Source: Candidatus Adlerbacteria bacterium (GTDB lineage Bacteria > Patescibacteriota > Minisyncoccia > Phycocordibacterales > SBAW01). Taken from it: a DNA stretch of 64,000 nt. Where the stretch lies: positions 8,836 to 72,835 of the forward strand of contig PLCJ01000001.1 in the NCBI GenBank assembly GCA_003135635.1, in the 5' to 3' direction. Made by a program: the position numbers and the translations under genes. The notes under the pieces were generated by a model. That model worked only from the letters and a program-made list of their open reading frames with translations, was not told where the DNA came from and made no database searches. The first letter of the stretch is position 1; the number at the start of each line of letters is the position of its first letter. Positions 1,656 to 59,633 of this stretch are shown piece after piece.

Positions 1656-1659
1656 ATGA

Positions 1660-3040: not shown

Positions 3041-3588
3041 TAGTTTGTAACGTCGTAGCAAGCTTCCGTGCCACCAGGCTGAGGCGTACCGGCAGTTGCG
3101 TCGCAACTTCCGTTGGAACCAGCACTCGTCCCAGAAAAATCACTATTACTGCTCGAACAATTATTAGATCTGTATGCAGCATCACTATCTTGAGTAAGTG
3201 CAGAATTGCTCGTTTGTTCAAGGAGTGCCCCGAGATGGTACGCGATAGGCGGAGGCGGACTACATATGTTGTTTACTGGATTTACCGCATTAAATGCAGC
3301 GTAGGAATATTGTTGACCTGTTTTTGGGTCAAGAGGCATGGTGGGCAGGTACGTTGGAACCAGAGTGCTTAACTGTAGAGGATAGCTAAGATTGTCACTA
3401 TAGTACTGCTCAAGGGAAAGCTGGATGGTGCGAATATCAGCAATGCGTTTAGCATCGCGGCCTTTGGCTTGAGCACTACTCAGAGACACCAAAATGATAG
3501 AGGCTAAAATGCCGATCAGAGCAATGACTACCAACAGCTCAATAAGGGTGAAACCACGAAGACGAAAAATAGATAATTTCATATACAC
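3040..3588 (-). CDS. Type IV pilin (PilA-like)
   Basis: MYMKLSIFRLRGFTLIELLVVIALIGILASIILVSLSSAQAKGRD; N-terminus nearly identical to next pilin. Confidence 0.85.
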   Translation of the reverse strand: MYMKLSIFRLRGFTLIELLVVIALIGILASIILVSLSSAQAKGRDAKRIADIRTIQLSLEQYYSDNLSYPLQLSTLVPTYLPTMPLDPKTGQQYSYAAFNAVNPVNNICSPPPPIAYHLGALLEQTSNSALTQDSDAAYRSNNCSSSNSDFSGTSAGSNGSCDATAGTPQPGGTEACYDVTN

Positions 3589-3654
3589 GTACCTATCCTA
3601 CGATACAATGAGGTCAAATTAAGTGCAGGTAAACCCCTCAGAAAAGTATCCTCC

Positions 3655-4152
3655 TTAGTTACATCCCACCGCAACACTGGCACTACTATTGCTACTAACA
3701 CTTACTATGTACGTGCCTGCTGAGCCTCCAGCAAACTGAGCTGTCCCACTTTCAAGGTACGTGCAAATTTCATAATTCTCTGTTCCGGGAGCACCTGCGC
3801 CGCCTGCTTGAGGAGCCACCATATATTGGCAGGTAGCAGCGGATGTTTTAGTGCAGACGGTCGCTGGAGTAGTTGGATCAAGATAATTTGAGAAGCTAAT
3901 AGGGCTAGGGCCGGTACACGTAGAGGCCATGACGCCGCCACTTACGCACCCGGTAAGGGCTACATTTGTCCCCGTATCAGCCAAGCTTATTGCTTTTCCC
4001 ATTTCCTGCAGAGAGGAAATACGTGCTGCATCGCGTCCTTTTGCCCGAGCGCTGTTAAGAGACACTAAAATGATAGAGGCCAAAATACCAATGATGGCGA
4101 TAACCACCAACAGTTCGATGAGGGTGAAACCACGTTTAAAATGTTTAGACAT
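3655..4152 (-). CDS. Type IV major pilin candidate (PilA-like)
   Basis: MSKHFKRGFTLIELLVVIAIIGILASIILVSLNSARAKGRD; 165 aa, Cys pairs in C-terminal region. Confidence 0.85.
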   Translation of the reverse strand: MSKHFKRGFTLIELLVVIAIIGILASIILVSLNSARAKGRDAARISSLQEMGKAISLADTGTNVALTGCVSGGVMASTCTGPSPISFSNYLDPTTPATVCTKTSAATCQYMVAPQAGGAGAPGTENYEICTYLESGTAQFAGGSAGTYIVSVSSNSSASVAVGCN

Positions 4153-4267
4153 ATATATAATTCATCAATAATTTACACACTTCCTTCACTGCCTCAAGTA
4201 TACCTCGCCCTTAGTATGTCACTTTTTATTGCTGTGGATAATATGTACCTTCCCTTGTAAGCTCTTT

Positions 4268-5482
4268 TTAGAGTTGGCTCGTCGTGTTATAAATCGGCAA
4301 CAATATTGATGCGAGAAGAAATCCAACCCCTATCGCCAAAACGACAATCATTGCTGGCTCAATAAGAGCAACCAGGGTGTCTACCGCTGCGCTTACCTCG
4401 CGATTATAAAATTTAGCAAGCCGATCAAGGATATTGGCAGTTTCCCCCGTCTCATTGCCTATCTGGAGCATTTGCACCATGATCGTAGGAATTTCCTTGG
4501 GATATCGAGACAATATGTCATGAAGGGGCGCGCCTCCCTTCACCCCCTCCACGGCAGCTTGGAGAATATCTTCGTACACAGCATTTTGTATGATTGAGGC
4601 AGTTATCTCAAGGGCGCGGAGAGTAGAGATACCACTACTTAGCATCACGTGCAAATTGTCGGCGATACGGGAAAGATATAACTTTTGGTATAGCGATCCA
4701 ATATAGGGCAAGGTGATCTGCAACCGAGAAATAGACCAGCGTCCTTGGGGTGTTTGAGCGTAACGGAAGAGAAAATAACCTGCGATAATAAGTGCAATAA
4801 GGAGAAATATTCCATAATCGACGAAAAATCCGCTGAGGTTAAGAACAATCTGAGTATATATAGGAAGTGTTCCACCTTCACTGGTCAAAATAGTGGCAAT
4901 TTTAGGAATAATGACCGTAATCATGAGTAGCATTACAGCAATAAACGTCACGATAATGAATGCTGGGTAAATGAGGGCATTGCGCACCTTACTGGTTATC
5001 TCGTAGGAACGATCAATATGATCTGCAAGAAATATAAATGTTTGGCTAAGCTTTCCCGTCTCTTCTCCGGCTCGCACCATATTGACGTAGAAATCTGAAA
5101 AAACCTTCGGGTGTTTGCCGAGCGCCTGAGAAATACTGCTTCCCGCCTGAAGATCATCGCTCACGCTCACGAGCGTTTGCCGCAGATAGGATGTGTCGGC
5201 CTGCTGGCTGAGGAGTTGGAATATGCGCAGTGGAGAAACCTGGGCCTCAAAGAGCGTTGCCAGTTGGCGCGAGAGAATAACGATACTGCGGCCACTTACC
5301 CCTCCAAAAATAGTAATATTGTGCAGTGAGGAGAATACATCTTTTTTTTGATTTGTTGAAAAAACAGTGAGGGTAAGCCCACGACGCTGCAGTATAGTAA
5401 TAGCCGCTTCCTCCGTTGCGGCGTTTACGGTTCCAGCTTGGGGCTTGCCTTCTTGATCTAGTGCTTCGTATTTATACTCCAT
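4268..5482 (-). CDS. pilC: Type IV pilus platform protein PilC (GspF family)
   Basis: 404 aa, two GspF repeats, 3 TM segments, position between pilin and pilT. Confidence 0.9.
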   Translation of the reverse strand: MEYKYEALDQEGKPQAGTVNAATEEAAITILQRRGLTLTVFSTNQKKDVFSSLHNITIFGGVSGRSIVILSRQLATLFEAQVSPLRIFQLLSQQADTSYLRQTLVSVSDDLQAGSSISQALGKHPKVFSDFYVNMVRAGEETGKLSQTFIFLADHIDRSYEITSKVRNALIYPAFIIVTFIAVMLLMITVIIPKIATILTSEGGTLPIYTQIVLNLSGFFVDYGIFLLIALIIAGYFLFRYAQTPQGRWSISRLQITLPYIGSLYQKLYLSRIADNLHVMLSSGISTLRALEITASIIQNAVYEDILQAAVEGVKGGAPLHDILSRYPKEIPTIMVQMLQIGNETGETANILDRLAKFYNREVSAAVDTLVALIEPAMIVVLAIGVGFLLASILLPIYNTTSQL

Positions 5483-5486
5483 AGCT

Positions 5487-6551
5487 CTACATCATTAACC
5501 GCTCCAGTGTTTTGGGGTTCCAAGAACGTGCGTAGGCGCTCTCTGGAGTAATTTCTCCGGCACGCACGAGATCCGCCAAGCAGCGATTCATATCAATCAT
5601 GCCTTCCTGGGAACTCGTTTCGATGATAGCGTCGATTTCGTGGATACGTTTTTCTCGAATAAGATTTGCAACTGCACTGGTGTTGATAAGAAGTTCATAG
5701 GCAGGAATAAGTCCACCAGAGATGCGCGGTATAAGCCGCTGAGAAAAGATGCCGCTGAGTGTTTCTGCAAGCTGGGCCCGGACTTGTTCCTGCTGACCCG
5801 AAGGAAATGTATCAAGGATACGATCGATAGTTTGGGAAGCGTTGTTGGTATGGAGCGTCGAAAAAACGAGGTGGCCCGTCTCTGCGGCAGTGACCGCAAT
5901 GGCCATTGTCTCTGATGTCCGCATCTCACCTATCATAAGAACGTCAACATCTTGACGAAATACGGATCCCAGTGCTGTTTCAAAGTCAGCGGTATCAATA
6001 CGCACTTCGCGTTGATCAACAATAGAGCGCTTATTTTCAAATAGATATTCGATTGGATCTTCAATGGTAATAATATGCTCGGTGCGTTCGATGTTGATTT
6101 TTTCAAGAAGCGCCGCAAGGGTGGTCGTCTTTCCTTGTCCCACTGGCCCAACTACTAAAAAAAAGCCCTGCTCACGGGTTGCAAACTGCTCAAGCTCTGA
6201 AGGAAGGTTTAATTCTTTTACTGAGCGAATGGTGCGGGGAACTAGCCGGAGTGCAACACCGATATGACCGCGCTCAACAAATGCATTTCCACGGAAACGC
6301 GCAGTATTGCCGTAGGAGAAAGAAAAATCGGCTTCCTGAGTCTGCAAAAACTTCTGTATACGCTCTGGAGAGAGCATGCGCTCAAGTAGACCCCGCACAT
6401 CTTCGTCGCTGAGTTTCGCTTCAGAGAGAAGTGGTGTCAAGATGCTAGAAACACGAATGACTGGATGCGCACCAGCCGACAAATGAAGATCTGATGCACC
6501 TTGTGCGATTACTTGATTGACAAAAGAAGTGAGCAATTGTTCGTAGTTCAT
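5487..6551 (-). CDS. pilT: Twitching motility retraction ATPase PilT
   Basis: Walker A GPVGQGKTTTLAAL, Asp box DVLMIGEMR, His box GHLVFSTLHTNNA; 354 aa. Confidence 0.92.
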   Translation of the reverse strand: MNYEQLLTSFVNQVIAQGASDLHLSAGAHPVIRVSSILTPLLSEAKLSDEDVRGLLERMLSPERIQKFLQTQEADFSFSYGNTARFRGNAFVERGHIGVALRLVPRTIRSVKELNLPSELEQFATREQGFFLVVGPVGQGKTTTLAALLEKINIERTEHIITIEDPIEYLFENKRSIVDQREVRIDTADFETALGSVFRQDVDVLMIGEMRTSETMAIAVTAAETGHLVFSTLHTNNASQTIDRILDTFPSGQQEQVRAQLAETLSGIFSQRLIPRISGGLIPAYELLINTSAVANLIREKRIHEIDAIIETSSQEGMIDMNRCLADLVRAGEITPESAYARSWNPKTLERLMM

Positions 6552-8401
6552 AATTGAATTTCTGTTTGGGGCTCTTCCGATTTCGTCTCTTCTTCTTCTG
6601 TTAGTTCTTTGGGCACAGAAGGAGGAATATCCGCACCAATATCAGAAAGTTCAAATTGGCCCCCAAGGCTATTGACCTCCTCAAACGGAATGACGCCCTT
6701 TACCGCTTTAATGATAGCATCCTCTTTCATCGTGAGCATGCCATCTTTACGTACAATGGAGAACATTTCTTCTTCAGATTTCCTTGCGAGGATGGCGCGT
6801 TCCAATTCCGGCACCATTTCAAAGGCTTCGGATACCGCAATGCGTCCTTTGGTTCCTGTTGGATACTCAAGCGTGGGCTTGATACGATATATTTCCTTAA
6901 GGGCGGGAATCTGATCACGAAATTCCTCTGGCACATCGGCAAATTCATCCTTAATCAGAGCCTCCATGCTGCCTTCAATCGGCATTTTCTGTCCACCTCC
7001 TTGCGGAAGCGTCCGTACGAGACGTTGTGCCATACCCAAAATGAGCACCGGGGGAATAAGATATGGCTCAATTTTCATATCAAGGAGACGCGGCACTATA
7101 CCGATAGCATTGTTGGTGTGTATTGTAGAAAGCACTAAATGGCCAGTGAGTGCAGCCTGCACAGCCAAGTCAGCTGTTTCGGCATCACGAATCTCACCCA
7201 CCATTATGATATTTGGGTCTTGGCGCAAGGTTGTACGCAGTCCGTTGGCAAAGGTATAGCCAATTTCAGGATGAACTTGTGATTGTGAAACCCCAGCAAT
7301 GGTGTATTCAACTGGATCTTCAAGCGAGAGCACATTTTGTCCTTCGCGGTCGATTTCATTGAGAACCGCATACAACGTCGTAGATTTTCCCGATCCAGTA
7401 GGACCAGAGATAAGAACGAGGCCGTAAGGCTTTTTTATAGCAGTACGAATAAGTTTAAGACTGCGGTCTGAAAAACCAAGATTCTCCAGTTTGACTTCTT
7501 GGGCAGACGCGCCAAGAATGCGCATCACCACCTTTTCGCCATAGTAGGTTGGAAAAGTAGAAACACGGAAATCCACCTTATTGCCACCCACCCGTGCAGA
7601 AAAACGGCCGTCCTGAGGCTTCCGTTTTTCATCAAGACGCATATTACAGAGTACTTTGATTCGAGCCACTACCGCTGGATGCACCTTGAGTGGCAACGTA
7701 ATGTTTGTTGAAAGGAACCCATCCACACGAAAGCGTACTCGTGTTTTATCGGCGAGTGGTTCGATATGAATGTCAGATGCTCGCTTCTCAGATGCATGAC
7801 GTAAGATGGTCGCTACAATCTTCGTAATGGGTGCATCAGTGGTGGTAGCATCGCTTGCTGTTTCAGTAATGGTTTCTTCTTGTATCGAAACAGTACGTTT
7901 ATTTTCCTTATCTGTTTTTTTAGTTTCATCAGTGATCTCAACTTCAAGTTCACTGAGAGCCTTCCCCACCTCTCCTGAAAGACCCTTATACTGGCCCATG
8001 ACACGATCAAAATCAGTTTCTGTAATAAGAAACACTTTGTATGGCATTCCTAATTTCGAAGAAATAAAGCTGAGAGCGTCTCGTGCTTCTAAATTGTCTG
8101 GATCAGTAATACCTACCTCAAGCACATTATCTTTGACCGTCAGAGGTACTAGCCCGTAATGTCGAGCAGATTCTTCAGGAATAAGCTGCAAAATATCAAA
8201 GGGTACTTGCTCTTCTCCCACTAAGCGCGTGGGGACAGCATAATATTGTCCTTTGGTCTTTAGGATGTCTTCAAGTGATATCCCCGCCTGGATCAAGAGG
8301 GCTTCTGGGGAGGCACCGGGAGATTTGAGATTCCGTTCTATTTCGGAAACTTTTTTTCGATCAAGTGTACCGTTTTGCAGGAATGTTTGCAGAAGGTCCA
8401 T
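6548..8401 (-). CDS. pilB: Type IV pilus assembly ATPase PilB (GspE family)
   Basis: T2SSE_N domain, Walker A ISGPTGSGKSTTLYAV, DPNIIMVGEIRD, TGHLVLSTIHTNNA; no Cys in the region where the tetracysteine motif usually lies; overlaps pilT start by 4 nt. Confidence 0.92.
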   Translation of the reverse strand: MDLLQTFLQNGTLDRKKVSEIERNLKSPGASPEALLIQAGISLEDILKTKGQYYAVPTRLVGEEQVPFDILQLIPEESARHYGLVPLTVKDNVLEVGITDPDNLEARDALSFISSKLGMPYKVFLITETDFDRVMGQYKGLSGEVGKALSELEVEITDETKKTDKENKRTVSIQEETITETASDATTTDAPITKIVATILRHASEKRASDIHIEPLADKTRVRFRVDGFLSTNITLPLKVHPAVVARIKVLCNMRLDEKRKPQDGRFSARVGGNKVDFRVSTFPTYYGEKVVMRILGASAQEVKLENLGFSDRSLKLIRTAIKKPYGLVLISGPTGSGKSTTLYAVLNEIDREGQNVLSLEDPVEYTIAGVSQSQVHPEIGYTFANGLRTTLRQDPNIIMVGEIRDAETADLAVQAALTGHLVLSTIHTNNAIGIVPRLLDMKIEPYLIPPVLILGMAQRLVRTLPQGGGQKMPIEGSMEALIKDEFADVPEEFRDQIPALKEIYRIKPTLEYPTGTKGRIAVSEAFEMVPELERAILARKSEEEMFSIVRKDGMLTMKEDAIIKAVKGVIPFEEVNSLGGQFELSDIGADIPPSVPKELTEEEETKSEEPQTEIQL

Positions 8402-8407
8402 GACATA

Positions 8408-8767
8408 TTAACGTCCCAAGGTTGGCACGGGTAATTTCGTTGTCTGAGATTGGGGCACACTATTTCCAAATGATGCAAAGGGGTTGTGACGACCAACATT
8501 TTCAGGCGGTATAACAACACCAAAATTTGTAAGAGATACAAACACAGGATCAGTAAATATTGAGCTATCAAGCGTTATCGTGCTAAGGCTTGTCAGCGAG
8601 GTAAGTAGTTTCTGGGAAGCGGGCGAGGAAGAGGAATCTCCTGTCGAAATCAAAAGCGTGCTGCTTGAAGAAGAGTTATTCATGCCAAGGGTATAGTAGA
8701 GAAGGCCGCCGATTACCCCCACAGTGACAATGGTCAAGAGTACATTTTGTTTAATAAAGGTCATCAT
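8408..8767 (-). CDS. Small bitopic membrane protein in pilus operon (PilP/PilO-like accessory?)
   Basis: N-terminal TM (LLTIVTVGVIGGLLYYTL), Ser-rich periplasmic part; only positional evidence. Confidence 0.5.
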   Translation of the reverse strand: MMTFIKQNVLLTIVTVGVIGGLLYYTLGMNNSSSSSTLLISTGDSSSSPASQKLLTSLTSLSTITLDSSIFTDPVFVSLTNFGVVIPPENVGRHNPFASFGNSVPQSQTTKLPVPTLGR

Positions 8768-8770
8768 ACG

Positions 8771-9322
8771 TTAATAGAGCCAATAGGTGCGAAAGGTGAT
8801 GGTATACGTTGTGGTGTTTCCGGTTCCATTTTGAAATGAAAGCTGTGTAATATCGACTATGCGCTCACTATGCTCAAGGTCCTGCAGAAACGCCATGAAC
8901 GTATCGTAATTTGTCGTTACTGAAAACCCAAGTTCTGCAGAACCAACTGGATTGCCAGAAGAGCCCACCGCAGCAATGCCGCCCGTGGTGCTGCTGTTTG
9001 ATGCCGTAGCTAATTTAAGGTTGCTGAGCGATAGGTTATACCGGGATGCAATATTGTTAACATCAATGATAAGACGGATGTTATCTACATTGTCAGGAAG
9101 TATCTGCTGCAATTTATCTACATCACTTTGAGAGAAGGCGTTGCTTTTGGTCAATAGTTGCTGACGCAAACCTTGCAACTGTTGCACTTTACTGAGTGCG
9201 TCATCATACTGCACCCCTTGTGATTGCACTCCTTTGATTTGTTGGTAGGTCGGATTGATATACAAGACAAACAGTCCGATGGCAGCAGCAATTAATATGA
9301 GAGGGATGAATATACGAGTCAT
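8771..9322 (-). CDS. pilO: PilO-like pilus assembly protein
   Basis: N-terminal TM + coiled-coil (QQLQGLRQQLLTK) typical of PilO; operon position. Confidence 0.6.
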   Translation of the reverse strand: MTRIFIPLILIAAAIGLFVLYINPTYQQIKGVQSQGVQYDDALSKVQQLQGLRQQLLTKSNAFSQSDVDKLQQILPDNVDNIRLIIDVNNIASRYNLSLSNLKLATASNSSTTGGIAAVGSSGNPVGSAELGFSVTTNYDTFMAFLQDLEHSERIVDITQLSFQNGTGNTTTYTITFRTYWLY

Positions 9323-9324
9323 AG

Positions 9325-9987
9325 TTATTGAAGAGGAGTAGTTGTGGCGGGAAGGATAGGAATAGAAGAGGAAGCAATGGGTTGTACATTTTGGTTAGAA
9401 GTTGCACCAGTGATAAGCTTGTTGCTGTAAAGAAGGAGAGCCTGGCTAACGTTTGTACTCAGGGTAAAAACCACCTGTCCGGATGTGTTGGTATTAATAT
9501 TAGAGAAAATGATATTTTTGAGCATATTGCTGCTGCCGAACTGGTCGCTTTGAAGCGCAAGAGTCGAAAAGGAATCCGCAATGCCCTGCAAGGTGACAAG
9601 TGCGGAACCATTAGGTTGTAGTTGATAATTAAAACTTGTAAATTGGACGTTTAATAGTGTCTGCTGCGAGAGAAAATCAAAAAGAGCAGAGGGAGCCACA
9701 TGCCCGGCAAGCAAAATCTTTGCCTGCAGTATCCGGTTATCCATGCGAACAAGATCATTAATGGAAGAAAGATCAATTGCGCTTTGGTCTTTTTGCAGTA
9801 CAGCGCTTTTATTTGCAATAGATTGGTTCAGATACTGCTCATACCCAAATACCAGCCCAGCTGCAACTAGTGATACTATGAAAATTAACAGCGCAATTAA
9901 AAACAAAAGCCCCGCTCCTTCTCCATGAGAAGGACCCGGAGTAAAAGATTTTTTCGGTATAAAGGACGCGGGAGCTTGAGGATCCAT
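9325..9987 (-). CDS. pilN: PilN-like pilus assembly protein
   Basis: Short cytoplasmic N-term, single TM (LLFLIALLIFIVSLVAAGLVF), follows pilM. Confidence 0.6.
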   Translation of the reverse strand: MDPQAPASFIPKKSFTPGPSHGEGAGLLFLIALLIFIVSLVAAGLVFGYEQYLNQSIANKSAVLQKDQSAIDLSSINDLVRMDNRILQAKILLAGHVAPSALFDFLSQQTLLNVQFTSFNYQLQPNGSALVTLQGIADSFSTLALQSDQFGSSNMLKNIIFSNINTNTSGQVVFTLSTNVSQALLLYSNKLITGATSNQNVQPIASSSIPILPATTTPLQ

Positions 9988-10037
9988 CAGTATTAGTATA
10001 CCGTTAAAAATTCCACAACTGCGGATCTATCAACAGA

Positions 10038-11117
10038 TTAGGCGATTTCCTGCAAACGCCGCAGCGCAAGGCCTACCGCAACAGAAAACTCTGGTCCTGC
10101 TTCTTTAAGAACACCTTCCAGAAATGCTGGCGCCTGTGTTTTTCCAAAAGGATCGGCAAGTCGAATTTCGTTTTGTAACTTACTCTGTGCAAAATCTTTA
10201 AGCCCCTTGAGGGTGGCGCTTCCTCCGGTGACCACCATGGTGCTGAGCGATTGGTTCATGCGCTGCTCGTAGGCAGCAATGGTGCGTGATACCTCCGACA
10301 GCAAGGGTGTTACGGAAAGAGCGAGCGTCTGAGTAAGATCGGGGCCCCCCTCCGGCATAAGGCCAAATTTTCTCTTGCGCTCTTCCGCTTGAGAGACACT
10401 AATATTAAGTGCACGGGAAGCGGCAAGTGTTAAATCTTGGCCTCCGTGATTAATAATATGGCTTTCGCGAATGAGTCCTCGTTCAACCACATAAAACTTT
10501 GTTGTCGCCGCGCCCATGTCAACCACTGCAACCGGCGCAATACCGCGATCAAGGGATGCTCGCACCGCACTAAATACTTCTATTTCAAAAAATGCTAGGG
10601 TAAGTCCGGCATCGCTGACAATACTTTTGAATTTAGCGATGGTATCGTTGTGTATGGCGACTAAAAGTACTTCAAGCTTACTTCCTGGCGTTGCTTCTTT
10701 GCCTCCGCCGGAGAGTACAAACCAATCAAGTAGTACTTCATTTATGGGAACTGGAATATACTTGCGTGCTTCAAGGGGTACCACTTGTGCAAGCTGCTTT
10801 TCGACAGACGCGGGCAATTTCAATATCGAAATAAGGCTCAAGGCATAAGGAATGGAGATTGCTACATCAGTAGTGGTGACACGCGCTTCACGAATCACAT
10901 CTTTAAGCGCTTCAGCGATCTTTTCAGTAGGCAAAGAGGTTGCACGACCAATTTCAAGACCGGCGTATGGCCCAAGGGCGATAGCACCATATGTTTCAAG
11001 TATCACCCGTCCATGTTCACGCCTGAGTTGTACCACCTTGATTGAAGAAGTGCCGACATCGACCCCAATGACACTCTTTTGTTCTTTGGAGAATAATGAT
11101 GAAAAAGAAAAGGCCAT
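10038..11117 (-). CDS. pilM: Type IV pilus assembly protein PilM (actin-like ATPase)
   Basis: SVIGVDVGTSSIKVVQL..., FtsA/actin fold motifs; start trimmed to ATG 11117 (MAFSFSSLFSKEQK) removing 44-aa ORF extension. Confidence 0.88.
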   Translation of the reverse strand: MAFSFSSLFSKEQKSVIGVDVGTSSIKVVQLRREHGRVILETYGAIALGPYAGLEIGRATSLPTEKIAEALKDVIREARVTTTDVAISIPYALSLISILKLPASVEKQLAQVVPLEARKYIPVPINEVLLDWFVLSGGGKEATPGSKLEVLLVAIHNDTIAKFKSIVSDAGLTLAFFEIEVFSAVRASLDRGIAPVAVVDMGAATTKFYVVERGLIRESHIINHGGQDLTLAASRALNISVSQAEERKRKFGLMPEGGPDLTQTLALSVTPLLSEVSRTIAAYEQRMNQSLSTMVVTGGSATLKGLKDFAQSKLQNEIRLADPFGKTQAPAFLEGVLKEAGPEFSVAVGLALRRLQEIA

Positions 11118-11233
11118 CAGGGAGTAGTATACCACTGTGTAGAAAGAGATTTGTGGCTCTAGGGCCTTCTGGTGTATACGTTTTCCGTCAGACTGAGTAT
11201 CTGGTACATTTATGAAGCAAAGGAAAGAATTAC

Positions 11234-11785
11234 GTGGTTGTTTCGTCATTACCTATGGAGCATAAAGATAAAGAAGAGGAGTTTCGGGAGGTATTCGAAA
11301 AACACTCAGATGAGTTATTTCGGCACTGCCACCTGCGCCTCTCTGATCGAGAGCGAGCGGTCGAGCTCACGCAGGAGACCTTCCTGCGGGCGTGGGAGTA
11401 CGTCTCCAAAGGAAATGTGGTTAAAAATTATCGACCTTTTCTCTATCGCATTCTCAACAACCTTGTTGTAGACGAATACCGTAAGAAAAAATCTCAGTCA
11501 CTGGATGCCCTTCTTGAAGATGAAGAAACAGTGGTTTCAATCGAAGGAGAATTTCTGCGGGATGAATCCGATGCGCTTGAAGCCGCTATGATTCGGTTTG
11601 ATGCGGCTCATGCTATTGAGGCTCTAAAAAAACTTCCCCAGCAGTATCAGGTTGTTCTTATTATGCGCTACGTTGATGGCTTTTCTTCTACGGAAATTGC
11701 CGCATATATGAAAGAAAAAGAAAACGCGATCGCGGTGCGCATCCACCGGGGCCTTCGGAAACTACGCGATATGCTTGAACTATAA
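11234..11785 (+). CDS. ECF-type RNA polymerase sigma factor (sigma-70 regions 2 and 4)
   Basis: ETFLRAWEYVSKG region 2; VVLIMRYVDGFSSTEIAAYM...RIHRGLRKLRDML region 4; alternative start at 11255 (MEHKDKEE). Confidence 0.85.
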   Translation: MVVSSLPMEHKDKEEEFREVFEKHSDELFRHCHLRLSDRERAVELTQETFLRAWEYVSKGNVVKNYRPFLYRILNNLVVDEYRKKKSQSLDALLEDEETVVSIEGEFLRDESDALEAAMIRFDAAHAIEALKKLPQQYQVVLIMRYVDGFSSTEIAAYMKEKENAIAVRIHRGLRKLRDMLEL

Positions 11786-54639: not shown

Positions 54640-55773
54640 TCAGTTTTGTCTGAGCGCTTCAATACCAACGAGAGTTCCCGCCGTTAAAAAGGCAAGCATA
54701 GCCCCACCGCCAGTTGAGAGAAACACACGTTTTGGATCAAAAGAAAACTTCTGAAGTGCCGCAAGTGTGTCTCCGCCTCCAACCACGCCGACGCCCGTTG
54801 CCCTTGTCAGCGCTTCAGCAAGTGCATCGGTGCCTGAGACAAAACCAAGCTCATATACACCAACTGGGCCATTCCATAAAATAAATGGTGCAGTAGAAAT
54901 TTCCTTGCCCCATTCTTGCGCAGTGATCGGGCCAATATCATCGATTTGCTCGGCTTTATGTACATTGTTTATATACGCTTCCCGTTCGGCATTTGCACCT
55001 TCATCTTTAAATACAGCATCTACCGGCACCACCAGTCGTTCATTTTGCGCAAGCTCAACGGGAATGGGAGTTGAGGAAATAACTGAGCTTCCAATGGGAG
55101 CGCCGCGAACCTTCAGCACATCGTTTGCAAGCGCGCCGCCAAGAAAAATCTTTTCGTAGGAAGAGAGTAGTTTGCTGATGAGGGGTTCTTTTGTTTGAAA
55201 TTTTGCCCCACCGATGATAGCAAGCGCGTGGGGAGGAGGAGTGAGCGCCGGGGAAAGTCGTGCAATTTCCTCGGCCATCAAAAAGCCACAGTAGGAAGGC
55301 AGGAGTGGGGGTATGCCGATGATTGATGCATGTCCTCGATGCGAATCGGCAAATGCATCGTTTACATAGATGTCACCGAGGCTTGCAAACGCCTCCGCAA
55401 GCTTAGAGTCATTGCTTTCTTCCCCCGCGTTGCGTCGCACATTTTCAAGTACCAGGCACTCACCATCAAGAAGCTTCTTTATCTCTGCCTTTGCGGCGCT
55501 CAGCGCTCCAGGAAAAAATTTGACCGGCACTCCCGAAATGAGGCTTGAGAGCGCAGTGACAATGGGCTCAAGTGTGGCTCCTTCACTGCCCAAATGAGCA
55601 AGGATAACAATACGCGCTCCATGTTCATGCAACCATAAGATAGTAGGCAGTGCTGCTTTGAGGCGAAATAGGTCACCAGGGGCACCATTAAGGAGCGGCA
55701 CATTAAGACTGGTGCGCAGAAGCACCCGCTTGCCGCGGACCTCGGCCGAGGAAATAATTTTTACTTCTTGCAT
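54640..55773 (-). CDS. pgk: Phosphoglycerate kinase
   Basis: N-terminal KRVLLRTSLNVPL, hinge and C-terminal GGGDTLAAL motifs. Confidence 0.93.
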   Translation of the reverse strand: MQEVKIISSAEVRGKRVLLRTSLNVPLLNGAPGDLFRLKAALPTILWLHEHGARIVILAHLGSEGATLEPIVTALSSLISGVPVKFFPGALSAAKAEIKKLLDGECLVLENVRRNAGEESNDSKLAEAFASLGDIYVNDAFADSHRGHASIIGIPPLLPSYCGFLMAEEIARLSPALTPPPHALAIIGGAKFQTKEPLISKLLSSYEKIFLGGALANDVLKVRGAPIGSSVISSTPIPVELAQNERLVVPVDAVFKDEGANAEREAYINNVHKAEQIDDIGPITAQEWGKEISTAPFILWNGPVGVYELGFVSGTDALAEALTRATGVGVVGGGDTLAALQKFSFDPKRVFLSTGGGAMLAFLTAGTLVGIEALRQN

Positions 55774-56537
55774 GCAGAGAGTATCTCGATAAATGATTCT
55801 ATCTCAGCGCTTGCGTGCCCAACCAAAAAACCCGAGACCCCACCTTCTTGCATAAGCAAGTGGGCATTTTGAGGCTCAATCGAACCACCATAGAGAACCG
55901 GCACTCCGCGCGCTGACTCGCGGCCTAAAATATCGACAAGAATTTTCCGGATGAAAATTTGCATCTCTTGAAGTTCACCAGGGTTCATTGCGTCTTGTGC
56001 GGTCTTCCCGATCGCCCAGACCGGCTCATAGGCAATCATCAGTTTACGAGTTGCACTGCGCGGAAAGTCGGAAAGCGCTGACGATAATTGCGAAGAAATA
56101 ACTTCAAAATAGGATCCATTGTGATCATGTTCCCGCTCCCCTATGCACAGCACTGCCGTAAGACCCGCTTGTATGGTCTGCAAAAGTTCTTCATGAATGA
56201 GTGCGTCTGTCTCCCCGAGCGCACGACGATCAGAATGTCCTACAAGCACAAACGAAGCGCCAGTCTGTTTTAGCATAGTGGCCGAGACATCGCCCGTATG
56301 CGCGCCCGCTTTGTGGGCGGAGACTGTTTGTGCCCCCAGGCGCACCGAAGTATTTTTAAGCGTGGGTTGCAGAAGTGAAAGGAGTGTAAAAGGAGGAGCT
56401 ACCCATACCTCAAGACCCCGAAAGAGGCGAGCGCGTCGCGTAAGCGTCAGAGCAAATTTCTTTGCTTCACTCGGCGAGGCAATATACATCTTCCAATTAC
56501 CAATAACAAAACGTTTTTTCACCCCCCAACTATACAA
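55761..56537 (-). CDS. tpiA: Triosephosphate isomerase
   Basis: IGNWKM, AYEPVWAIG, VLYGGSI motifs; overlaps pgk start by 13 nt. Confidence 0.9.
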   Translation of the reverse strand: MYSWGVKKRFVIGNWKMYIASPSEAKKFALTLTRRARLFRGLEVWVAPPFTLLSLLQPTLKNTSVRLGAQTVSAHKAGAHTGDVSATMLKQTGASFVLVGHSDRRALGETDALIHEELLQTIQAGLTAVLCIGEREHDHNGSYFEVISSQLSSALSDFPRSATRKLMIAYEPVWAIGKTAQDAMNPGELQEMQIFIRKILVDILGRESARGVPVLYGGSIEPQNAHLLMQEGGVSGFLVGHASAEIESFIEILSACKK

Positions 56538-56543
56538 TTCTTA

Positions 56544-58274
56544 TTACTGGGCCGCTATCCGCAAGACTTCTTCTATTGTTGTATATCCTTGTGTCGCTTT
56601 ATAGATACCATCTTCAGCAAGAGTAAGCATGCCTTCATCGTAGGCAATCTGCTGGAGATCCTGTAGATCAGTATGCTGGGTGATCATTTCCTTCATGTTG
56701 CGCGATATTGGCCATACCTCCTGCACGCCGATGCGTCCCCGGTATCCCCCGTCGCACTTCTCACAGGGCACCTGGCGGTGAAAACTAATTTCCTTCCACG
56801 GCGTATGCGGGGCCACAGCTCCACCTTCTCTCAGTGCCGCCAAAATACGGGAGGGATCTGCTACCTCTTCAATCGATTGCAACTCCGATCGTAGTGCCTG
56901 ATATGTCTCTCGTTTAGTGCAAAGTCTGCGTACGTGGGAAACCCCGATGGCTGTATGTAGAACAGATGCAATGGATAGAGGAGGCGCTACCTCTTGGAGT
57001 TTTGTGATACCTTCTGCGGTAGAAGATGCTCCAATACCTGCAAGTACCAATATGCCGCGGTTCGCTGCAGCAAGTGCGACCGTGGCCACAGCCGCATCGT
57101 CAATAGTACCCACCATGAGCACGTCGGGATCTTGTTTTGCTGCGGCACGAAGCGCTGCGACCAACGAAACGCCCATCTCAGGCTGCGCTTGTGTTTGGAC
57201 AATATGACGAAGCGGATACTTAACACGCTCTTCTACCGTGATTATGTTTTTATCAGAGGTAGCAAGAATATCAAGAAGTGTATAGAGGAGCGTTGCTTTT
57301 CCCGCCCCCAGTGCGCCACATACCATAATAAGTCCAGAGCGTTGGGCAAGAGCGTGGTGGACATTTTCAAGTGACTGTCCATGCAACCCGAGTGCCTCAA
57401 GCGTAAAGCCGGCGCGATGGGAATAGTCAGGGATAAGATGAAGCACCATCCGCTCGCCATGAGCGCTCGGGATACTTGCAAGTGTTACCAAGGCTCGGCC
57501 TGCTTCTCCTTCTAACCGAAAGCGCCCCTCTTGTGGTGACACTTCGGAAAGTGGTACCTGTGCGAGGAATTTTAAACGCAGAAGCATGCTAGTTGCTGTA
57601 GAGGGTGGCAACACCATGCTGTCGCATAATTTTCCAGCAATCCTATAGCGCACTAACAAACCGTGCTCCGTGGGATCCAAATGAATATCTGTCGCGCGAC
57701 TGCTAAGCGCATGTCGCATGAGCAGGTCAACAAGATGTGATACCGGCTGGAGCTGCGCTGCTTGAAGCACATCTTGAGGAGTGTCTGAAAAAGGGACGGA
57801 CACGTCATGAGCCACCTGCGCCATAGCATTCCCGACCGTTTGTTTGAGATATTTTTGATATTTCAGAAGAGCCATCTTCATACTTTCCGCGTCGGTCAAA
57901 CGAGGCAGGACGCGCCAGCGATCTTCTAAAAACGAAATCGCGGGTCGATCCTCAAGATCAAGAAATGCTACTTCCAGCGTATGGCCATGCGCGGCAAATG
58001 CCACCGTATGATGAGCCCGAGCAAGAGGTTCAGGAATAAGGGTGAAAACCTCAGGAGTAATATCCTCAGCGGTGAGTTTTACAAATGGTACGCCAGTCAT
58101 ATTGGCTACTGCCCGATTGAGCTCATCTGAGGAAAGAATGCCAGCGCCCACAAGTGCTTGCTCGAGAGTTTCCCGCATTTCCTCTGCGCGCTCTTGTGCA
58201 GCCGCTGCATCGGCGCGAGAGAGCATACCGCTTCCGAGTAAAAAATCAAGCAGCTGTGCTTCATCAATCTCCAT
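56544..58274 (-). CDS. PilB/GspE-family ATPase paralog with degenerate catalytic motifs (predicted pseudo-ATPase)
   Basis: T2SSE_N-like N-terminus; Walker A GALGAGKATLL (Ala after Lys), Asp box VGTIDD (catalytic Glu lost), His box replaced by NRGILVLAGIGASS; retains C..CxxC; start trimmed to MEIDEAQLL (coordinate +/-1). Confidence 0.75.
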   Translation of the reverse strand: MEIDEAQLLDFLLGSGMLSRADAAAAQERAEEMRETLEQALVGAGILSSDELNRAVANMTGVPFVKLTAEDITPEVFTLIPEPLARAHHTVAFAAHGHTLEVAFLDLEDRPAISFLEDRWRVLPRLTDAESMKMALLKYQKYLKQTVGNAMAQVAHDVSVPFSDTPQDVLQAAQLQPVSHLVDLLMRHALSSRATDIHLDPTEHGLLVRYRIAGKLCDSMVLPPSTATSMLLRLKFLAQVPLSEVSPQEGRFRLEGEAGRALVTLASIPSAHGERMVLHLIPDYSHRAGFTLEALGLHGQSLENVHHALAQRSGLIMVCGALGAGKATLLYTLLDILATSDKNIITVEERVKYPLRHIVQTQAQPEMGVSLVAALRAAAKQDPDVLMVGTIDDAAVATVALAAANRGILVLAGIGASSTAEGITKLQEVAPPLSIASVLHTAIGVSHVRRLCTKRETYQALRSELQSIEEVADPSRILAALREGGAVAPHTPWKEISFHRQVPCEKCDGGYRGRIGVQEVWPISRNMKEMITQHTDLQDLQQIAYDEGMLTLAEDGIYKATQGYTTIEEVLRIAAQ

Positions 58275-58383
58275 TATCTTCACATTATATACGCTACACA
58301 GGAAAATTAGAGTGACGTGCACGGGTGACACAAAGGCATTTGACATATGCGACCGTCTCATATATCATGTGTACATCTGGCAG

Positions 58384-58407
58384 CCGCCCTGAGGGGGCGG
58401 TTGTTTT
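58384..58407 (+). promoter_or_regulatory. Leader hairpin/attenuator-like element upstream of nusA
   Basis: CCGCCC-tgag-GGGCGG followed by TTGTTTTG, ~10 nt downstream of a TTGACA-17-TATCAT promoter (58339-58367). Confidence 0.4.
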
Positions 58408-58439
58408 GTGCCAGGGCATATTCATTAACCTATTTTTTT

Positions 58440-59633
58440 ATGTTCGACCTTAAAGTCATTAACTCGGTTCTGAGTGAACTTGAGCAAGAGCGTGGCATAC
58501 CGCGAGAAAAAGTTATCGAAGCGATAGAGGCTGCTCTTGCGACCGCATACAAAAAAGAATACGCAAAAAAAGGACAGATCATACGCGCACATATTGATCT
58601 TGAGACCGGCACTACTGAATTTTCGCAAGTAAAAGTAGCAGTAGATGCGTCAACCGTACGATTTTCTGAAGAAAATGAGAGCGATGCGCACAAACCAGCT
58701 CAGGGGTTGACTGATGAGGAACTTTTGCCCCACTTTAATCCTGAACAGCACATCCTTCTTTCAGATGCCAAGCTCATCAAGCGCGACGCACAGGTAGGTG
58801 ACGAGCTTATTTTCCCCCTCGAAACGAAGGGTGATTATGGGCGTATTGCGGCACAAACCGCAAAACAGGTCATTATCCAAAAAATCAGAGAAGCGGAAAA
58901 AGTTTCCATCATGGCCGAGTTCGGCAAGCGACAAGGAGAAATTATTACTGGCATGGTACAGCGCATGGAACGAGGCAATTTGTATGTGGATCTCGGACGC
59001 GCTACTGGCATTATTCCCTACAGCGAACAAATTCCCGGTGAACGCTATCGACAAGGTGAGCGTATTCGAGCACTCCTGTATCAAGTTGAAGAAAGTCTGC
59101 ATGGGATGTACTTGCGACTTTCGCGTGCACAGCCACAATTTCTTGCAAAGCTTTTTGAAGCAGAAGTGCCAGAAGTTGCACACGGTACTGTCGTGTTTAA
59201 ATCCATCGCAAGGGAGGCCGGCAGTCGCTCCAAAGTAGCAGTTGCTTCCACCGATCCCCACGTGGATCCTGTGGGTTCTCTGGTGGGCCAGCGTGGTGTG
59301 CGTGTTTCGACAGTTACCACTGAGCTTGGGGGAGAAAAAATCGACATCGTCGAATGGTCAGAAGATACAAAAAGATTTATTGAAGAAGCCCTTTCCCCTG
59401 CTCGCGTTATAGAAGTGGACATTGATGAAGCAGAGCACAAGGCAGTCGTTAAAGTCTCTGAAGATCAGCAATCCCTCGCCATCGGCAGGGGGGGTCAAAA
59501 TGTACGGCTTGCCGCAAAACTGACTGGCTGGCGCATTGATATTCAATCAATAGGCGGAGGAAAAACTGCTGAGATGACTGAGAACACTAAAGCTACAGAA
59601 GAAAAACCAACGGGGGAAATTATAAAAGAGTAA
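58440..59633 (+). CDS. nusA: Transcription termination/antitermination factor NusA
   Basis: MFDLKVINSVLSELEQERGIPREKVIEAIEAAL, S1 and two KH domains; start trimmed to ATG 58440. Confidence 0.9.
   Translation: MFDLKVINSVLSELEQERGIPREKVIEAIEAALATAYKKEYAKKGQIIRAHIDLETGTTEFSQVKVAVDASTVRFSEENESDAHKPAQGLTDEELLPHFNPEQHILLSDAKLIKRDAQVGDELIFPLETKGDYGRIAAQTAKQVIIQKIREAEKVSIMAEFGKRQGEIITGMVQRMERGNLYVDLGRATGIIPYSEQIPGERYRQGERIRALLYQVEESLHGMYLRLSRAQPQFLAKLFEAEVPEVAHGTVVFKSIAREAGSRSKVAVASTDPHVDPVGSLVGQRGVRVSTVTTELGGEKIDIVEWSEDTKRFIEEALSPARVIEVDIDEAEHKAVVKVSEDQQSLAIGRGGQNVRLAAKLTGWRIDIQSIGGGKTAEMTENTKATEEKPTGEIIKE

What the first reader, a model, noticed from the sequence alone, without database searches (positions are those of the whole stretch)
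56544..58274. Second PilB/GspE-family protein with all catalytic motifs degenerated (predicted pseudo-ATPase) upstream of tpiA-pgk
Compared with the canonical PilB at 6548-8401, this 576-aa paralog keeps the T2SSE_N domain and overall fold. Its Walker A is GAGKAT with Ala at the Ser/Thr position. The Walker B/Asp-box glutamate is Thr (VGTIDD). Both His-box histidines are lost (NRGILVLAGIGASS). It retains three Cys (C-x45-CxxC), while the canonical PilB has none. Such a protein cannot hydrolyse ATP normally. It may act as a regulatory or scaffolding subunit of the pilus motor, possibly a c-di-GMP receptor via the MshEN-like N-domain. It is co-oriented with glycolytic genes, far from the pilus locus.
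Basis: seen in the sequence. Interest (0 to 1): 0.6.

Follow-up and report, generated by a model that had tools for sequence, protein, structure and literature searches.

The report
Orphaned, catalytically dead PilB2 pilus ATPase
This gene is the only surviving piece of a lost second type IV pilus operon: a pilus-motor ATPase homologue that has lost most catalytic residues, yet a large clade of ultrasmall Patescibacteria has kept it under strong purifying selection, so it most likely has a non-catalytic job.

Summary
Window 56544-58274(-) encodes a 576-aa PilB/GspE-fold protein (Pfam T2SSE 2.9e-71 plus the MshEN/GSPII domain; AF2 pLDDT 94). It keeps 3 of 8 catalytic elements: Walker A Lys326, Asp-box Glu348 and Arg251. 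It has lost the Walker A Ser/Thr (Ala327), the catalytic Glu (Thr390), the second Arg finger (Thr264) and both His-box histidines (Ile408, Gly415).

It is not a one-off. At least 177 protein clusters from Paceibacteria/Parcubacteria share the loss of both histidines and form one clade. That clade is derived from canonical "PilB2" ATPases.

In relatives, canonical PilB2 sits in the same slot (nusA | ... tpiA-pgk). There it heads an operon pilB2-pilC2-large pilin-like protein-pilin-474-aa protein. All 10 degenerate or partly degenerate loci examined have lost pilC2 and the pilins.

The orphan is still under purifying selection. dN/dS is 0.17, against 0.16 for the adjacent tpiA. Constraint has shifted from the ATPase core to the N-terminal N1D docking domain.

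Best reading, by inference: a non-catalytic adaptor or regulator that docks on the remaining complete T4P-1 machine (window 503-11249). The c-di-GMP-receptor idea fails the motif test. I found no published description.

The parts
56544..58274 (-). pilB2' gene: an orphan, catalytically degenerate PilB/GspE-family protein of 576 aa, including the stop codon. The longer ORF reaching 58361 is not supported by homologue alignment.
57840..58274 (-). N1D (GSPII/MshEN-like) domain, aa 1-145. It is the most constrained part of the protein in the degenerate clade. The c-di-GMP motif is not met.
57291..57317 (-). Walker A remnant GALGAGKAT (aa 320-328). Lys326 is kept and the Ser/Thr is replaced by Ala327.
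57216..57239 (-). Asp-box remnant TVEERVKY (aa 346-353). Glu348, the equivalent of the Mg ligand, is kept. It is kept in 173 of 177 family members.
57096..57125 (-). Atypical Walker B DVLMVGTIDD (aa 384-393). The catalytic Glu is replaced by Thr390.
57024..57059 (-). Former His box RGILVLAGIGAS (aa 406-417). Both His are lost (Ile408, Gly415). Arg406 replaces the inter-chain-contact Thr.
56754..56921 (-). Remnant of the tetracysteine Zn site: C452, Arg455 in place of the second ligand, then C504 and C507.
55761..56537 (-). tpiA. It starts 6 nt after the pilB2' stop codon, so it is probably co-transcribed.
54640..55773 (-). pgk, overlapping the end of tpiA. It is a syntenic anchor.
58347..59633 (+). 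nusA, divergent from pilB2' and a syntenic anchor. The true start is probably near 58440.
503..11249 (-). Complete T4P-1 locus and the candidate partner machine. Genes: pilM 10038-11249, pilN 9325-9987, pilO 8771-9322, pilB1 6548-8401, pilT 5487-6551, pilC 4268-5482, pilD 2252-3106. Pilins: 3655-4152, 3040-3588, 1660-2292, 1056-1673, 503-1138.

Best explanation
Shown:
- The gene is the ortholog of PilB2, the extension ATPase of a second, compact type IV pilus/Com-like operon (pilB2-pilC2-large pilin-like protein-pilin-474-aa protein). In related Paceibacteria that operon lies between nusA and tpiA-pgk.
- In the lineage that includes this window, the platform gene pilC2 and the pilin genes were deleted. 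Only the ATPase gene remains.
- The orphan lost its catalytic Glu, both His-box histidines, one Arg finger and the Walker A Ser/Thr. It kept the whole three-domain fold.
- It has been maintained as an intact gene under purifying selection as strong as that on the neighbouring tpiA.
- The strongest constraint is now on the N-terminal N1D domain and the weakest on the ATPase core.

Inferred:
- The protein no longer works as a motor.
- It acts as a non-catalytic subunit. It would dock through N1D, the domain that binds GspL/PilM-type platform proteins in homologues. It may still assemble into a static ring, because Glu348 and Arg251 form an inter-subunit salt bridge in canonical PilB.
- The target would be the only pilus machine left in the genome, T4P-1 (window 503-11249).
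- There it would act as an adaptor, placeholder or brake that modulates access of the active motors PilB1 and PilT.
- In this protein Lys326 may still allow nucleotide binding without turnover.
For: - Fold and family: Pfam T2SSE and MshEN. AF2 pLDDT 94.1 and pTM 0.87. Top Foldseek hits are GspE-GspL, PilF, EpsE and PilB.
- Motif loss. The roles of the residues come from GmPilB structures (PMC5424180).
- Family-wide decay: among 177 homologues lacking both His, the catalytic Glu is kept in 34, the Walker A Lys in 129, an intact GxxxxGK[ST] in 115 and the second Arg finger in 86. None keeps more than 6 of 8 elements. The replacement residues vary.
- Orthology: degenerate, partly degenerate and operon-encoded canonical PilB2 proteins form a clade in 100 of 100 NJ bootstraps, and that clade excludes the PilB1 types. 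All 177 degenerate and 12 partial forms make one clade with no canonical member.
- Synteny: 11 canonical loci (L005, L011-L019, L021) carry pilC2 and pilin-like genes. Ten distinct degenerate or partial loci (window, L001, L002, L003, L006, L008, L009, L020, L103, L104) lack them. Eight of those 10 have the orphan between nusA and tpiA; L002 and L006 have short unannotated ORFs before tpiA; L103 shows no nusA, and other genes lie between its pilB and tpiA; the L104 contig ends inside tpiA. The window has no pilC2, 605-aa, 199-aa or 474-aa homologue.
- Selection: for the L003/L020 pair dN/dS is 0.17 for pilB2', 0.16 for tpiA, 0.12 for pgk and 0.11 for nusA. By domain it is 0.10 for N1D and 0.25 for the CTD core. 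Canonical pairs show the opposite dN pattern, with N1D dN 1.3 to 3.4 times that of the CTD core.
- Column conservation: columns at least 90% conserved, degenerate clade versus canonical PilB2, are 18 vs 8 in N1D and 18 vs 65 in the CTD core.
- Precedent: ATPase-dead PilT variants still support PilU-dependent retraction, and PilU cannot function without PilT (PMC6762196). M. xanthus PilB signals to EPS production independently of pilus assembly (PMC11656802).
Against: - No biochemical or interaction evidence exists. Inactivity is inferred from sequence alone.
- The partner is unknown. Only 64 kb of the genome is visible, so a pilC2 or a pilin set elsewhere in the genome cannot be excluded.
- The proposal of N1D docking on PilM or PilC comes from homologues and was not modelled here.
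- No strongly conserved clade-specific replacement residue was found that would mark a new binding site. The nearest is Arg406, present in 121 of 177 members.
- The dN/dS estimate rests on a single unsaturated pair.
- About 65% of the family keeps an intact P-loop, so nucleotide binding or slow hydrolysis cannot be ruled out.
Confidence: 0.5

Rival explanations
1. A moonlighting role unrelated to the pilus machine. The dead ATPase would have been recruited for something else, for example a ComGA-like role in organising DNA uptake or competence proteins (comEC and recJ lie 3-5 genes downstream in relatives), or in growth control. N1D would then bind a non-pilus partner.
For: - The gene is orphaned from all pilus genes and sits about 48 kb from T4P-1.
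- Its synteny is with housekeeping genes and with recJ-rnhA-comEC.
- The ancestral operon is Com-like: an ATPase, a platform protein and pilin-like proteins, with no PilT and often no PilMNO.
- The region aa 185-430 matches NCBIfam ComGA at 3.5e-43.
- From my own knowledge, B. subtilis ComGA has roles beyond pseudopilus assembly.
Against: - The adjacency to recJ and comEC is also present in lineages with canonical PilB2 and looks like backbone synteny rather than a functional operon.
- The ComGA match is far weaker than the PilB and GspE matches and far below its cut-off.
- No direct evidence points to any alternative partner.
Confidence: 0.2
2. It is still a working, slow or atypical ATPase or ATP-dependent switch. 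It would act as an alternative extension motor, or a nucleotide-gated subunit, for T4P-1, using non-canonical catalytic residues.
For: - The Walker A Lys is kept in this protein and in 129 of 177 relatives.
- The P-loop glycines, the Asp-box Glu (173 of 177) and the leading Walker B Asp (171 of 177) are conserved.
- Asp replaces the catalytic Glu in 53 of 177 members.
Against: - Both His-box histidines are gone in every member. This is by the class definition, but the members form one clade.
- The catalytic position holds variable residues (D, E, S, A, N, T, R, P), so there is no conserved alternative.
- 27% of members have lost the Walker A Lys.
- The ATPase core is the least constrained domain.
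- Mutations of these motifs abolish ATPase activity and function in studied PilT-like ATPases (PMC5424180; PMC6762196).
- In this protein 5 of 8 catalytic elements are missing.
Confidence: 0.12
3. It is a c-di-GMP receptor that uses the MshEN-like N1D.
For: - Pfam MshEN matches above its cut-off.
- N1D is the most conserved domain in the clade.
Against: - The defining tandem motif (R/K/L)LGxx[LVI][LVI]xxG[LVI][LVI]xxxxL...LxxQ is not met. Position 1 is Q7 and T36, position 3 is L9 and E38, and the last position is A30 and M59.
- The family consensus lacks the Gly at position 3 and the terminal Gln.
- GspE-like outgroup sequences in the same alignment do carry G3, L17, L21 and Q24, so the alignment is able to detect the motif (PMC11731258).
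Confidence: 0.04
4. It is a decaying pseudogene. The reading frame would stay open only because nonsense mutations would have polar effects on the essential tpiA-pgk genes downstream.
For: - The gene is the first in an apparent pilB2'-tpiA-pgk transcription unit. There is a 6-nt gap and no terminator between pilB2' and tpiA.
- The catalytic motifs have decayed.
- The clade evolves about 3 times faster than canonical PilB2 (root-to-tip 0.91 vs 0.31).
Against: - Polarity would protect only the frame, not the amino acids. dN/dS is 0.17, equal to tpiA, and 0.10 in N1D.
- 18 columns are invariant across 65 sequences that share 34-51% identity with the window protein.
- The AF2 model is confident throughout, with pLDDT 94.
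- The ORF is intact in at least 177 clusters at 50% identity.
- Simple deletion of the gene, as happened to pilC2 and the pilins, would have been possible.
Confidence: 0.03

Closest known systems
PilB / GspE / PilF extension ATPases of type IV pili and type II secretion (PilT-like ASCE ATPases; e.g. G. metallireducens PilB 5TSH, T. thermophilus PilF 5OIU, Vibrio GspE 4PHT)
   Same: - The same three-domain architecture: N1D (GSPII), N2D and CTD.
- The best sequence and fold matches.
- P-loop glycines, the Walker A Lys, the Asp-box Glu and the first Arg finger are retained.
   Different: - The catalytic Glu, both His-box histidines, the second Arg finger and the Walker A Ser/Thr are lost. The Zn site is incomplete.
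- There is no adjacent PilC or pilin genes.
- Scores are far below the NCBIfam PilB and GspE equivalog cut-offs (297.6 vs 675.65; 281.1 vs 630.25).
- Domain constraint is inverted, with N1D more constrained than the core.
PilB2 of the second type IV pilus (T4P-2) of Patescibacteria, shown experimentally in Saccharibacteria Nanosynbacter lyticus TM7x (PMC11623550 / PMC12206443)
   Same: - A second extension-ATPase paralogue in a Patescibacterium that also has a complete T4P-1 with PilT.
- The ancestral Paceibacterial operon likewise lacks a retraction ATPase.
- Some canonical loci (L015, L018, L019) also carry a pilM2.
   Different: - TM7x PilB2 has conserved Walker A and B boxes and assembles thin pili together with PilC2 and the PilM2N2O2 proteins.
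- Here the platform and pilins are gone and the catalytic residues have decayed.
- Orthology between the Saccharibacterial and the Paceibacterial T4P-2 was not tested.
ATPase-dead PilT variants that still support retraction by the active paralogue PilU (V. cholerae, P. aeruginosa; PMC6762196)
   Same: They show that a PilT-like ATPase unable to bind or hydrolyse ATP can still have a function at the pilus machine; the authors' simplest interpretation is that it recruits the active paralogue.
   Different: - Those are engineered point mutants, plus one natural R206S allele, of an otherwise canonical motor.
- Here the loss is natural, multi-site, ancient and clade-wide, and it is in an extension-type (PilB) protein.
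MshE and the MshEN c-di-GMP-binding N-terminal domains (V. cholerae MshE, PilF GSPII-B/C; PMC11731258)
   Same: The same N-terminal GSPII fold family. Pfam MshEN matches above its cut-off.
   Different: The c-di-GMP-binding consensus is not met in either motif.
FlaH of the archaellum and TadZ/CpaE of Tad pili (from my own knowledge, not tested here)
   Same: They are non-hydrolysing or atypical NTPase-fold accessory proteins that bind to or position the real motor ATPase of a type IV filament machine. This is the kind of role proposed here.
   Different: They belong to different protein families (RecA/KaiC-like and ParA/MinD-like). They are not derived from the motor ATPase itself.

Membership tests
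PilB/GspE-type secretion ATPase family (Pfam T2SSE + GSPII N-domain) | T2SSE (PF00437) domain above the gathering score | tested here: met
   240.5 bits against a cut-off of 24.9, covering aa 172-572
PilB/GspE-type secretion ATPase family (Pfam T2SSE + GSPII N-domain) | N-terminal GSPII/MshEN (PF05157) domain and the three-domain N1D-N2D-CTD fold | tested here: met
   MshEN 35.1 bits against 23.1. AF2 pLDDT 94.1. Foldseek to GspE, PilF and PilB gives E-values from 1e-37 to 1e-29.
PilB/GspE-type secretion ATPase family (as an active enzyme) | Walker A GxxxxGK[ST] | tested here: not met
   The sequence is GALGAGKAT. Lys326 is present and the Ser/Thr is Ala327.
PilB/GspE-type secretion ATPase family (as an active enzyme) | Asp-box Glu that coordinates Mg (GmPilB E357) | tested here: met
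   Glu348 is kept, as in 173 of 177 clade members. The rest of the box is altered, EERVK instead of EDPVE.
PilB/GspE-type secretion ATPase family (as an active enzyme) | Catalytic Glu directly after the atypical Walker B (GmPilB E395) | tested here: not met
   Thr390 (MVGTIDD). The Glu is kept in only 34 of 177 clade members.
PilB/GspE-type secretion ATPase family (as an active enzyme) | The two His-box histidines (GmPilB H413, H420) | tested here: not met
   Ile408 and Gly415. Both His are lost in all 177 members of the class.
PilB/GspE-type secretion ATPase family (as an active enzyme) | Two arginine fingers (GmPilB R271, R286) | tested here: not met
   Arg251 is kept and the second finger is Thr264. 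In the clade the second Arg is kept in 86 of 177.
PilB/GspE-type secretion ATPase family (as an active enzyme) | Tetracysteine Zn-binding motif of the PilB/GspE clade | tested here: not met
   C452, C504 and C507 are present, and the second ligand is Arg455. The window's PilB1 and many canonical Patescibacterial PilB2 proteins also lack the full motif, so this feature is weak for this phylum.
PilB/GspE-type secretion ATPase family (as an active enzyme) | NCBIfam equivalog score (TIGR02538 PilB or TIGR02533 GspE) | tested here: not met
   297.6 against 675.65, and 281.1 against 630.25. PilB1 of the window also falls short (472.3).
PilB/GspE-type secretion ATPase family (as an active enzyme) | Measurable ATPase activity and hexamer formation | not testable with these tools
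   This needs purified protein. Only a monomer model was available.
Functional T4P/T2SS gene cluster | ATPase encoded together with a PilC/GspF platform protein and pilins | tested here: not met
   There is no pilC2 or pilin next to the gene or elsewhere in the window apart from T4P-1. The same holds in the 9 other degenerate or partial loci.
Paceibacterial PilB2 orthologous group (second pilus operon at nusA|...|tpiA-pgk) | Phylogenetic grouping with operon-encoded PilB2 rather than PilB1 | tested here: met
   The clade of degenerate, partial and canonical-operon PilB2 proteins appears in 100 of 100 NJ bootstraps. PilB1 types fall outside it.
Paceibacterial PilB2 orthologous group (second pilus operon at nusA|...|tpiA-pgk) | Same syntenic position | tested here: met
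   nusA is divergent upstream and tpiA-pgk-HIT-recJ lies downstream in both canonical loci (L005, L011-L013, L017) and degenerate loci.
MshEN-type c-di-GMP receptors | Two tandem 24-residue motifs (R/K/L)LGxx[LVI][LVI]xxG[LVI][LVI]xxxxL...LxxQ separated by 5 residues | tested here: not met
   Motif I: Q7, L9 (not Gly), A23, A30. Motif II: T36, E38 (not Gly), M59. The clade consensus also lacks G3 and Q24 (consensus).
Pseudoenzyme (a catalytically inactive homologue retained by selection) | Loss of catalytic residues together with purifying selection on the protein | tested here: met
   5 of 8 catalytic elements are lost. dN/dS is 0.17, against 0.16 for tpiA, in the one unsaturated pair. The ORF is intact across at least 177 clusters. 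Catalytic inactivity itself has not been measured.

The most novel reading that the evidence does not exclude
The PilB2' clade would be the first natural, ancient and widely conserved pseudo-ATPase within the PilT-like secretion ATPase superfamily. It would be a dead extension motor that survived the deletion of its own pilus. It would then have been exapted as a non-catalytic clutch or adaptor that competes with, or recruits, PilB1 and PilT at the single remaining T4P platform through its N1D domain. That would give ultrasmall episymbiotic bacteria a protein-level control of pilus dynamics.
Probability: 0.3. Interest if true: 0.75.

Novelty: new variant of a known kind. Interest (0 to 1): 0.62.

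Why it matters
Type IV pili are thought to be central to how Patescibacteria (CPR) attach to hosts, move and take up DNA. Their motor ATPases are textbook examples of strictly conserved catalytic motifs.

A clade-wide, selection-maintained PilB homologue without those residues and without its own platform or pilins implies a non-catalytic function of the PilB scaffold, most likely of the poorly understood N1D domain.

It offers a natural separation-of-function variant for asking what N1D and the PilB ring do besides hydrolysing ATP. It also warns that 'PilB' annotations in Paceibacterial genomes overcount functional pilus systems. Finally, it documents stepwise reductive evolution of a pilus operon in which one component was exapted.

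Tried and rejected
- The metagenome-contig scan with the window protein found no close relatives. It returned 12 loci, the best at 36-38% identity over partial matches, so no additional dN/dS pairs came from it.
Only L011-L024 were informative.
- dN/dS for most locus pairs could not be used because dS was saturated. Only L003/L020 was informative.
- I looked for clade-specific conserved replacement residues (at least 85% in the degenerate clade, with a different residue at 70% or more in canonical PilB2). None was found.
- The small ORFs between pilB' and tpiA in L002 were inspected as possible pilins. They have no prepilin signal.
- Literature searches for 'pseudo-ATPase' with pilus, for pseudoenzyme with type IV pilus, and for degenerate PilB found nothing relevant. 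The CPR protein-family paper does not mention degenerate forms.
- The ~1000-aa tandem double-PilB proteins were checked as possible fusions of a dead half and a live half. Both halves are mostly canonical, so they are unrelated to this finding.
- I considered an AF2 prediction of a chimeric N1D-PilM construct.
Full report
**1. Observation**

The ORF at 56544..58361(-) is 605 aa from the first ATG. The start at 58274 (MEIDEAQLL..., 576 aa) is the one that aligns residue 1 to residue 1 with homologues. Pfam gives T2SSE at 2.9e-71 (240.5 bits) over aa 172-572 and MshEN/GSPII at 1.3e-8. NCBIfam ranks PilB and GspE first, but far below their equivalog cut-offs (297.6 vs 675.65; 281.1 vs 630.25). 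Identity to the window's other PilB (6548-8401, here called PilB1) is 27%.

The motif registration agrees in four independent alignments: with solved PilF and PilB structures, with 120 homologues, with 235 homologues, and with locus-encoded proteins.

| Element | Canonical | Window protein |
|---|---|---|
| Walker A | GPTGSGK[ST]T | GALGAGKAT (Lys326 kept, Ala327 at Ser/Thr) |
| Asp box | T[IV]EDP[IV]EY | TVEERVKY (Glu348 kept) |
| Walker B + catalytic Glu | MVGEIRD | MVGTIDD (Thr390) |
| His box | LTGH..ST.HTN | NRGILVLAGIGAS (Ile408, Gly415) |

The residue roles come from the G. metallireducens PilB structures (PMC5424180): E357 is the Mg ligand, E395 the catalytic Glu, R271 and R286 the Arg fingers, and H413 and H420 the His box. 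On that map the window protein keeps 3 of 8 catalytic elements (Lys326, Glu348, Arg251).

Two minor corrections apply. The Cys pattern is C452-x51-C504-x2-C507, with Arg455 at the second Zn-ligand position. PilB1 has one Cys (C252), but none in the Zn motif.

An AF2 model built on a 65-sequence family alignment is confident throughout (pLDDT 94.1, pTM 0.87). Its best structural matches are GspE-GspL (4PHT), PilF, EpsE and PilB. The fold is therefore intact.

**2. It is a large conserved family, not a one-off**

A word-indexed search of 5.8 billion proteins and an exhaustive HMMER search of 1.84 billion cluster representatives found no protein closer than 51% identity. They did find a deep family in Patescibacteria. 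Source names include Candidatus Adlerbacteria, Paceibacterota and Parcubacteria.

Of 235 aligned sequences, 177 lack both His-box histidines, 13 are partly degenerate and 45 are canonical. Within the 177:

- the catalytic Glu is kept in 34;
- the Walker A Lys is kept in 129 (replaced by R, V, T, A, I or C in the rest);
- an intact GxxxxGK[ST] is kept in 115;
- the second Arg finger is kept in 86;
- the Asp-box Glu is kept in 173.

None keeps more than 6 of the 8 elements. The substitutions differ from member to member. That is the pattern expected when catalysis is no longer under selection, and not the pattern of a conserved alternative chemistry.

**3. Origin: an orphan of a deleted second pilus operon**

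Some canonical proteins (P0009-P0014 and others) are 38-41% identical to the window protein. That is closer than the window's own PilB1.

Genomic context was recovered for 21 distinct loci, and motif states were read from the encoded proteins.

- Eleven loci encode a canonical ATPase (L005, L011-L019, L021). All of them have, directly downstream, pilC2 (T2SSF) and pilin-like genes. In L005 these are a ~605-aa protein with a prepilin-like N-terminus and CarboxypepD_reg domains, a 199-aa N_methyl pilin, and a 474-aa protein with a pilin-like N-terminus.
- In L005, L011-L013, L016 and L017 this block is followed by tpiA-pgk. In most of those loci nusA lies divergently upstream.
- Ten distinct loci encode a degenerate or partly degenerate protein (window, L001, L002, L003=L004, L006=L007, L008, L009=L010, L020, L103, L104). 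None of them has pilC2 or the pilin genes next to the ATPase. Eight of the 10 have the ATPase alone between nusA and tpiA. L002 and L006 carry short unannotated ORFs before tpiA. L103 shows no nusA and has other genes between its pilB and tpiA. The L104 contig ends inside tpiA.
- The association is complete (11/0 versus 0/10). The loci are phylogenetically related, so this is not an independent-sample statistic.

The window has no other homologue of pilC2 or of the three pilin-like proteins.

A bootstrapped NJ tree places the degenerate, partial and operon-encoded canonical PilB2 proteins in one clade in 100 of 100 replicates. PilB1-type proteins, which are encoded next to pilT and pilC, fall outside. 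In the larger tree all 177 degenerate and 12 partial proteins form a single clade with no canonical member. Root-to-tip distance is about 3 times longer in the degenerate clade (0.91 vs 0.31).

Even the least decayed form examined, P0144, which lacks only the second His, has already lost pilC2. This suggests that loss of the platform came before or together with the catalytic decay.

Two type IV pilus systems per cell, one without a retraction ATPase, are established experimentally in Saccharibacteria. There both PilB proteins have canonical Walker boxes (PMC11623550).

**4. It is maintained by selection, with the constraint shifted**

- The ORF is intact in all sequences with DNA in hand, although amino-acid identity among them is 33-51% and dS is saturated.
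- For the one unsaturated pair (L003/L020, 76% identity), dN/dS is 0.17. The flanking genes in the same pair give 0.16 (tpiA), 0.12 (pgk) and 0.11 (nusA).
- By domain, dN/dS is 0.10 for N1D, 0.17-0.18 for N2D, 0.25 for the CTD core and 0.19-0.21 for the C-terminal part.
- Canonical PilB2 pairs show the opposite dN pattern. N1D dN is 1.3 to 3.4 times that of the CTD core in five pairs.
- Columns at least 90% conserved, degenerate clade versus canonical PilB2, number 18 vs 8 in N1D, 13 vs 42 in N2D and 18 vs 65 in the CTD core.

This rules out a drifting pseudogene. It also rules out an ORF kept open only to avoid polar effects on tpiA-pgk. The polarity idea was worth considering because the stop codon lies 6 nt from the tpiA start and no terminator is predicted between them.

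**5. The c-di-GMP idea**

The published MshEN consensus is (R/K/L)LGxx[LVI][LVI]xxG[LVI][LVI]xxxxL...LxxQ, present twice (PMC11731258). It is not met here. Motif I has Q7, L9, A23 and A30. Motif II has T36, E38 and M59. The clade consensus also lacks the Gly at position 3 and the terminal Gln. GspE-like outgroup sequences in the same alignment do have these residues, so the test can detect the motif.

**6. Mechanism (inference)**

The window holds one complete pilus machine, T4P-1: pilM-pilN-pilO-(119-aa ORF)-pilB1-pilT-pilC-pilins-pilD-pilins at 503-11249.

In homologues, N1D is the module that contacts the GspL/PilM-type platform. The top fold match is the GspE-GspL complex, and the PilB review makes the same proposal (PMC11656802).

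Glu348 and Arg251 are retained. In PilB the equivalent residues form an inter-subunit salt bridge in the ADP-bound state. That is compatible with a ring that still assembles.

I therefore favour a non-catalytic adaptor, placeholder or brake acting on T4P-1. There are precedents for hydrolysis-independent roles:
- ATPase-dead PilT variants still support PilU-dependent retraction, and PilU cannot function without PilT (PMC6762196).
- M. xanthus PilB regulates EPS production independently of pilus assembly.

The rival explanations are a non-pilus moonlighting role, residual or atypical ATPase or ATP-switch activity, c-di-GMP sensing, and a pseudogene. They are weighted in the rival list.

**7. 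Novelty**

Public sources name these proteins generically: PilB, TadA, 'ATPase, T2SS/T4P/T4SS family' or hypothetical protein.

The protein is a member of a known superfamily by fold. It fails the catalytic membership features and the operon context. I therefore rate it a new variant of a known kind.

**Limits**

- Only 64 kb of the genome is visible.
- Inactivity and the partner are inferred, not measured.
- The trees are NJ trees built on Kimura distances.
- The dN/dS estimate rests on one pair.

Noticed in passing
P0135, P0141, P0143, P0145, P0157, P0179, P0181, P0184, P0186, P0206, P0207, P0221, P0234 (proteins): PilB/GspE-family proteins of about 1000 aa that contain two ATPase cores in tandem. 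Both halves mostly have canonical Walker A and His-box motifs. These look like covalently fused double motors. Their origin and context are unknown.
   Followed up: partly
window 53730-64000, and loci L001-L013: A long conserved backbone synteny across divergent Paceibacteria: HU - rny - clpP - tig - ppa - nusA, then divergently pilB2(') ... tpiA - pgk - HIT - recJ - rnhA - comEC - sodA.
   Followed up: partly
L015 11172-12236, L018 17132-18292, L019 9627-10637: In one branch of canonical PilB2 operons, a PilM homologue (pilM2) follows the 474-aa gene. The operons that are followed by tpiA lack it. The second system therefore varies in whether it has its own alignment protein.
   Followed up: no
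window 6548-8401 (-): PilB1, which has canonical catalytic motifs, has no tetracysteine Zn motif at all (only C252). It carries an acidic C-terminal tail of about 40 aa. It also scores below the NCBIfam PilB equivalog cut-off (472.3 vs 675.65).
   Followed up: no
window 8408-8767 (-): A 119-aa ORF between pilO and pilB1 in the T4P-1 locus has no Pfam match.
   Followed up: no
L002 9700-13700; L103 59-4234 and 7274-10783: The vacated slot between pilB2' and tpiA has been refilled differently in some lineages. L002 has about 4 kb holding seven small ORFs without Pfam hits. L103 has giant Flg_new-repeat proteins of 1391 and 1169 aa.
   Followed up: partly
window 58275-58440: The divergent intergenic region between pilB2' and nusA has a TATAAT about 10 nt upstream of the pilB2' ATG. 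That would imply a very short or absent leader. The listed nusA ORF start (58347) is probably too far upstream, and homology suggests a start near 58440.
   Followed up: no
P0001, P0003, P0004, P0006, P0007, P0023, P0028, P0029: In many degenerate-clade members the second Zn ligand appears to be His (C-x2-H ... C-x2-C) rather than Cys. Other members have lost all four ligands. The window protein has Arg455 at that position.
   Followed up: partly
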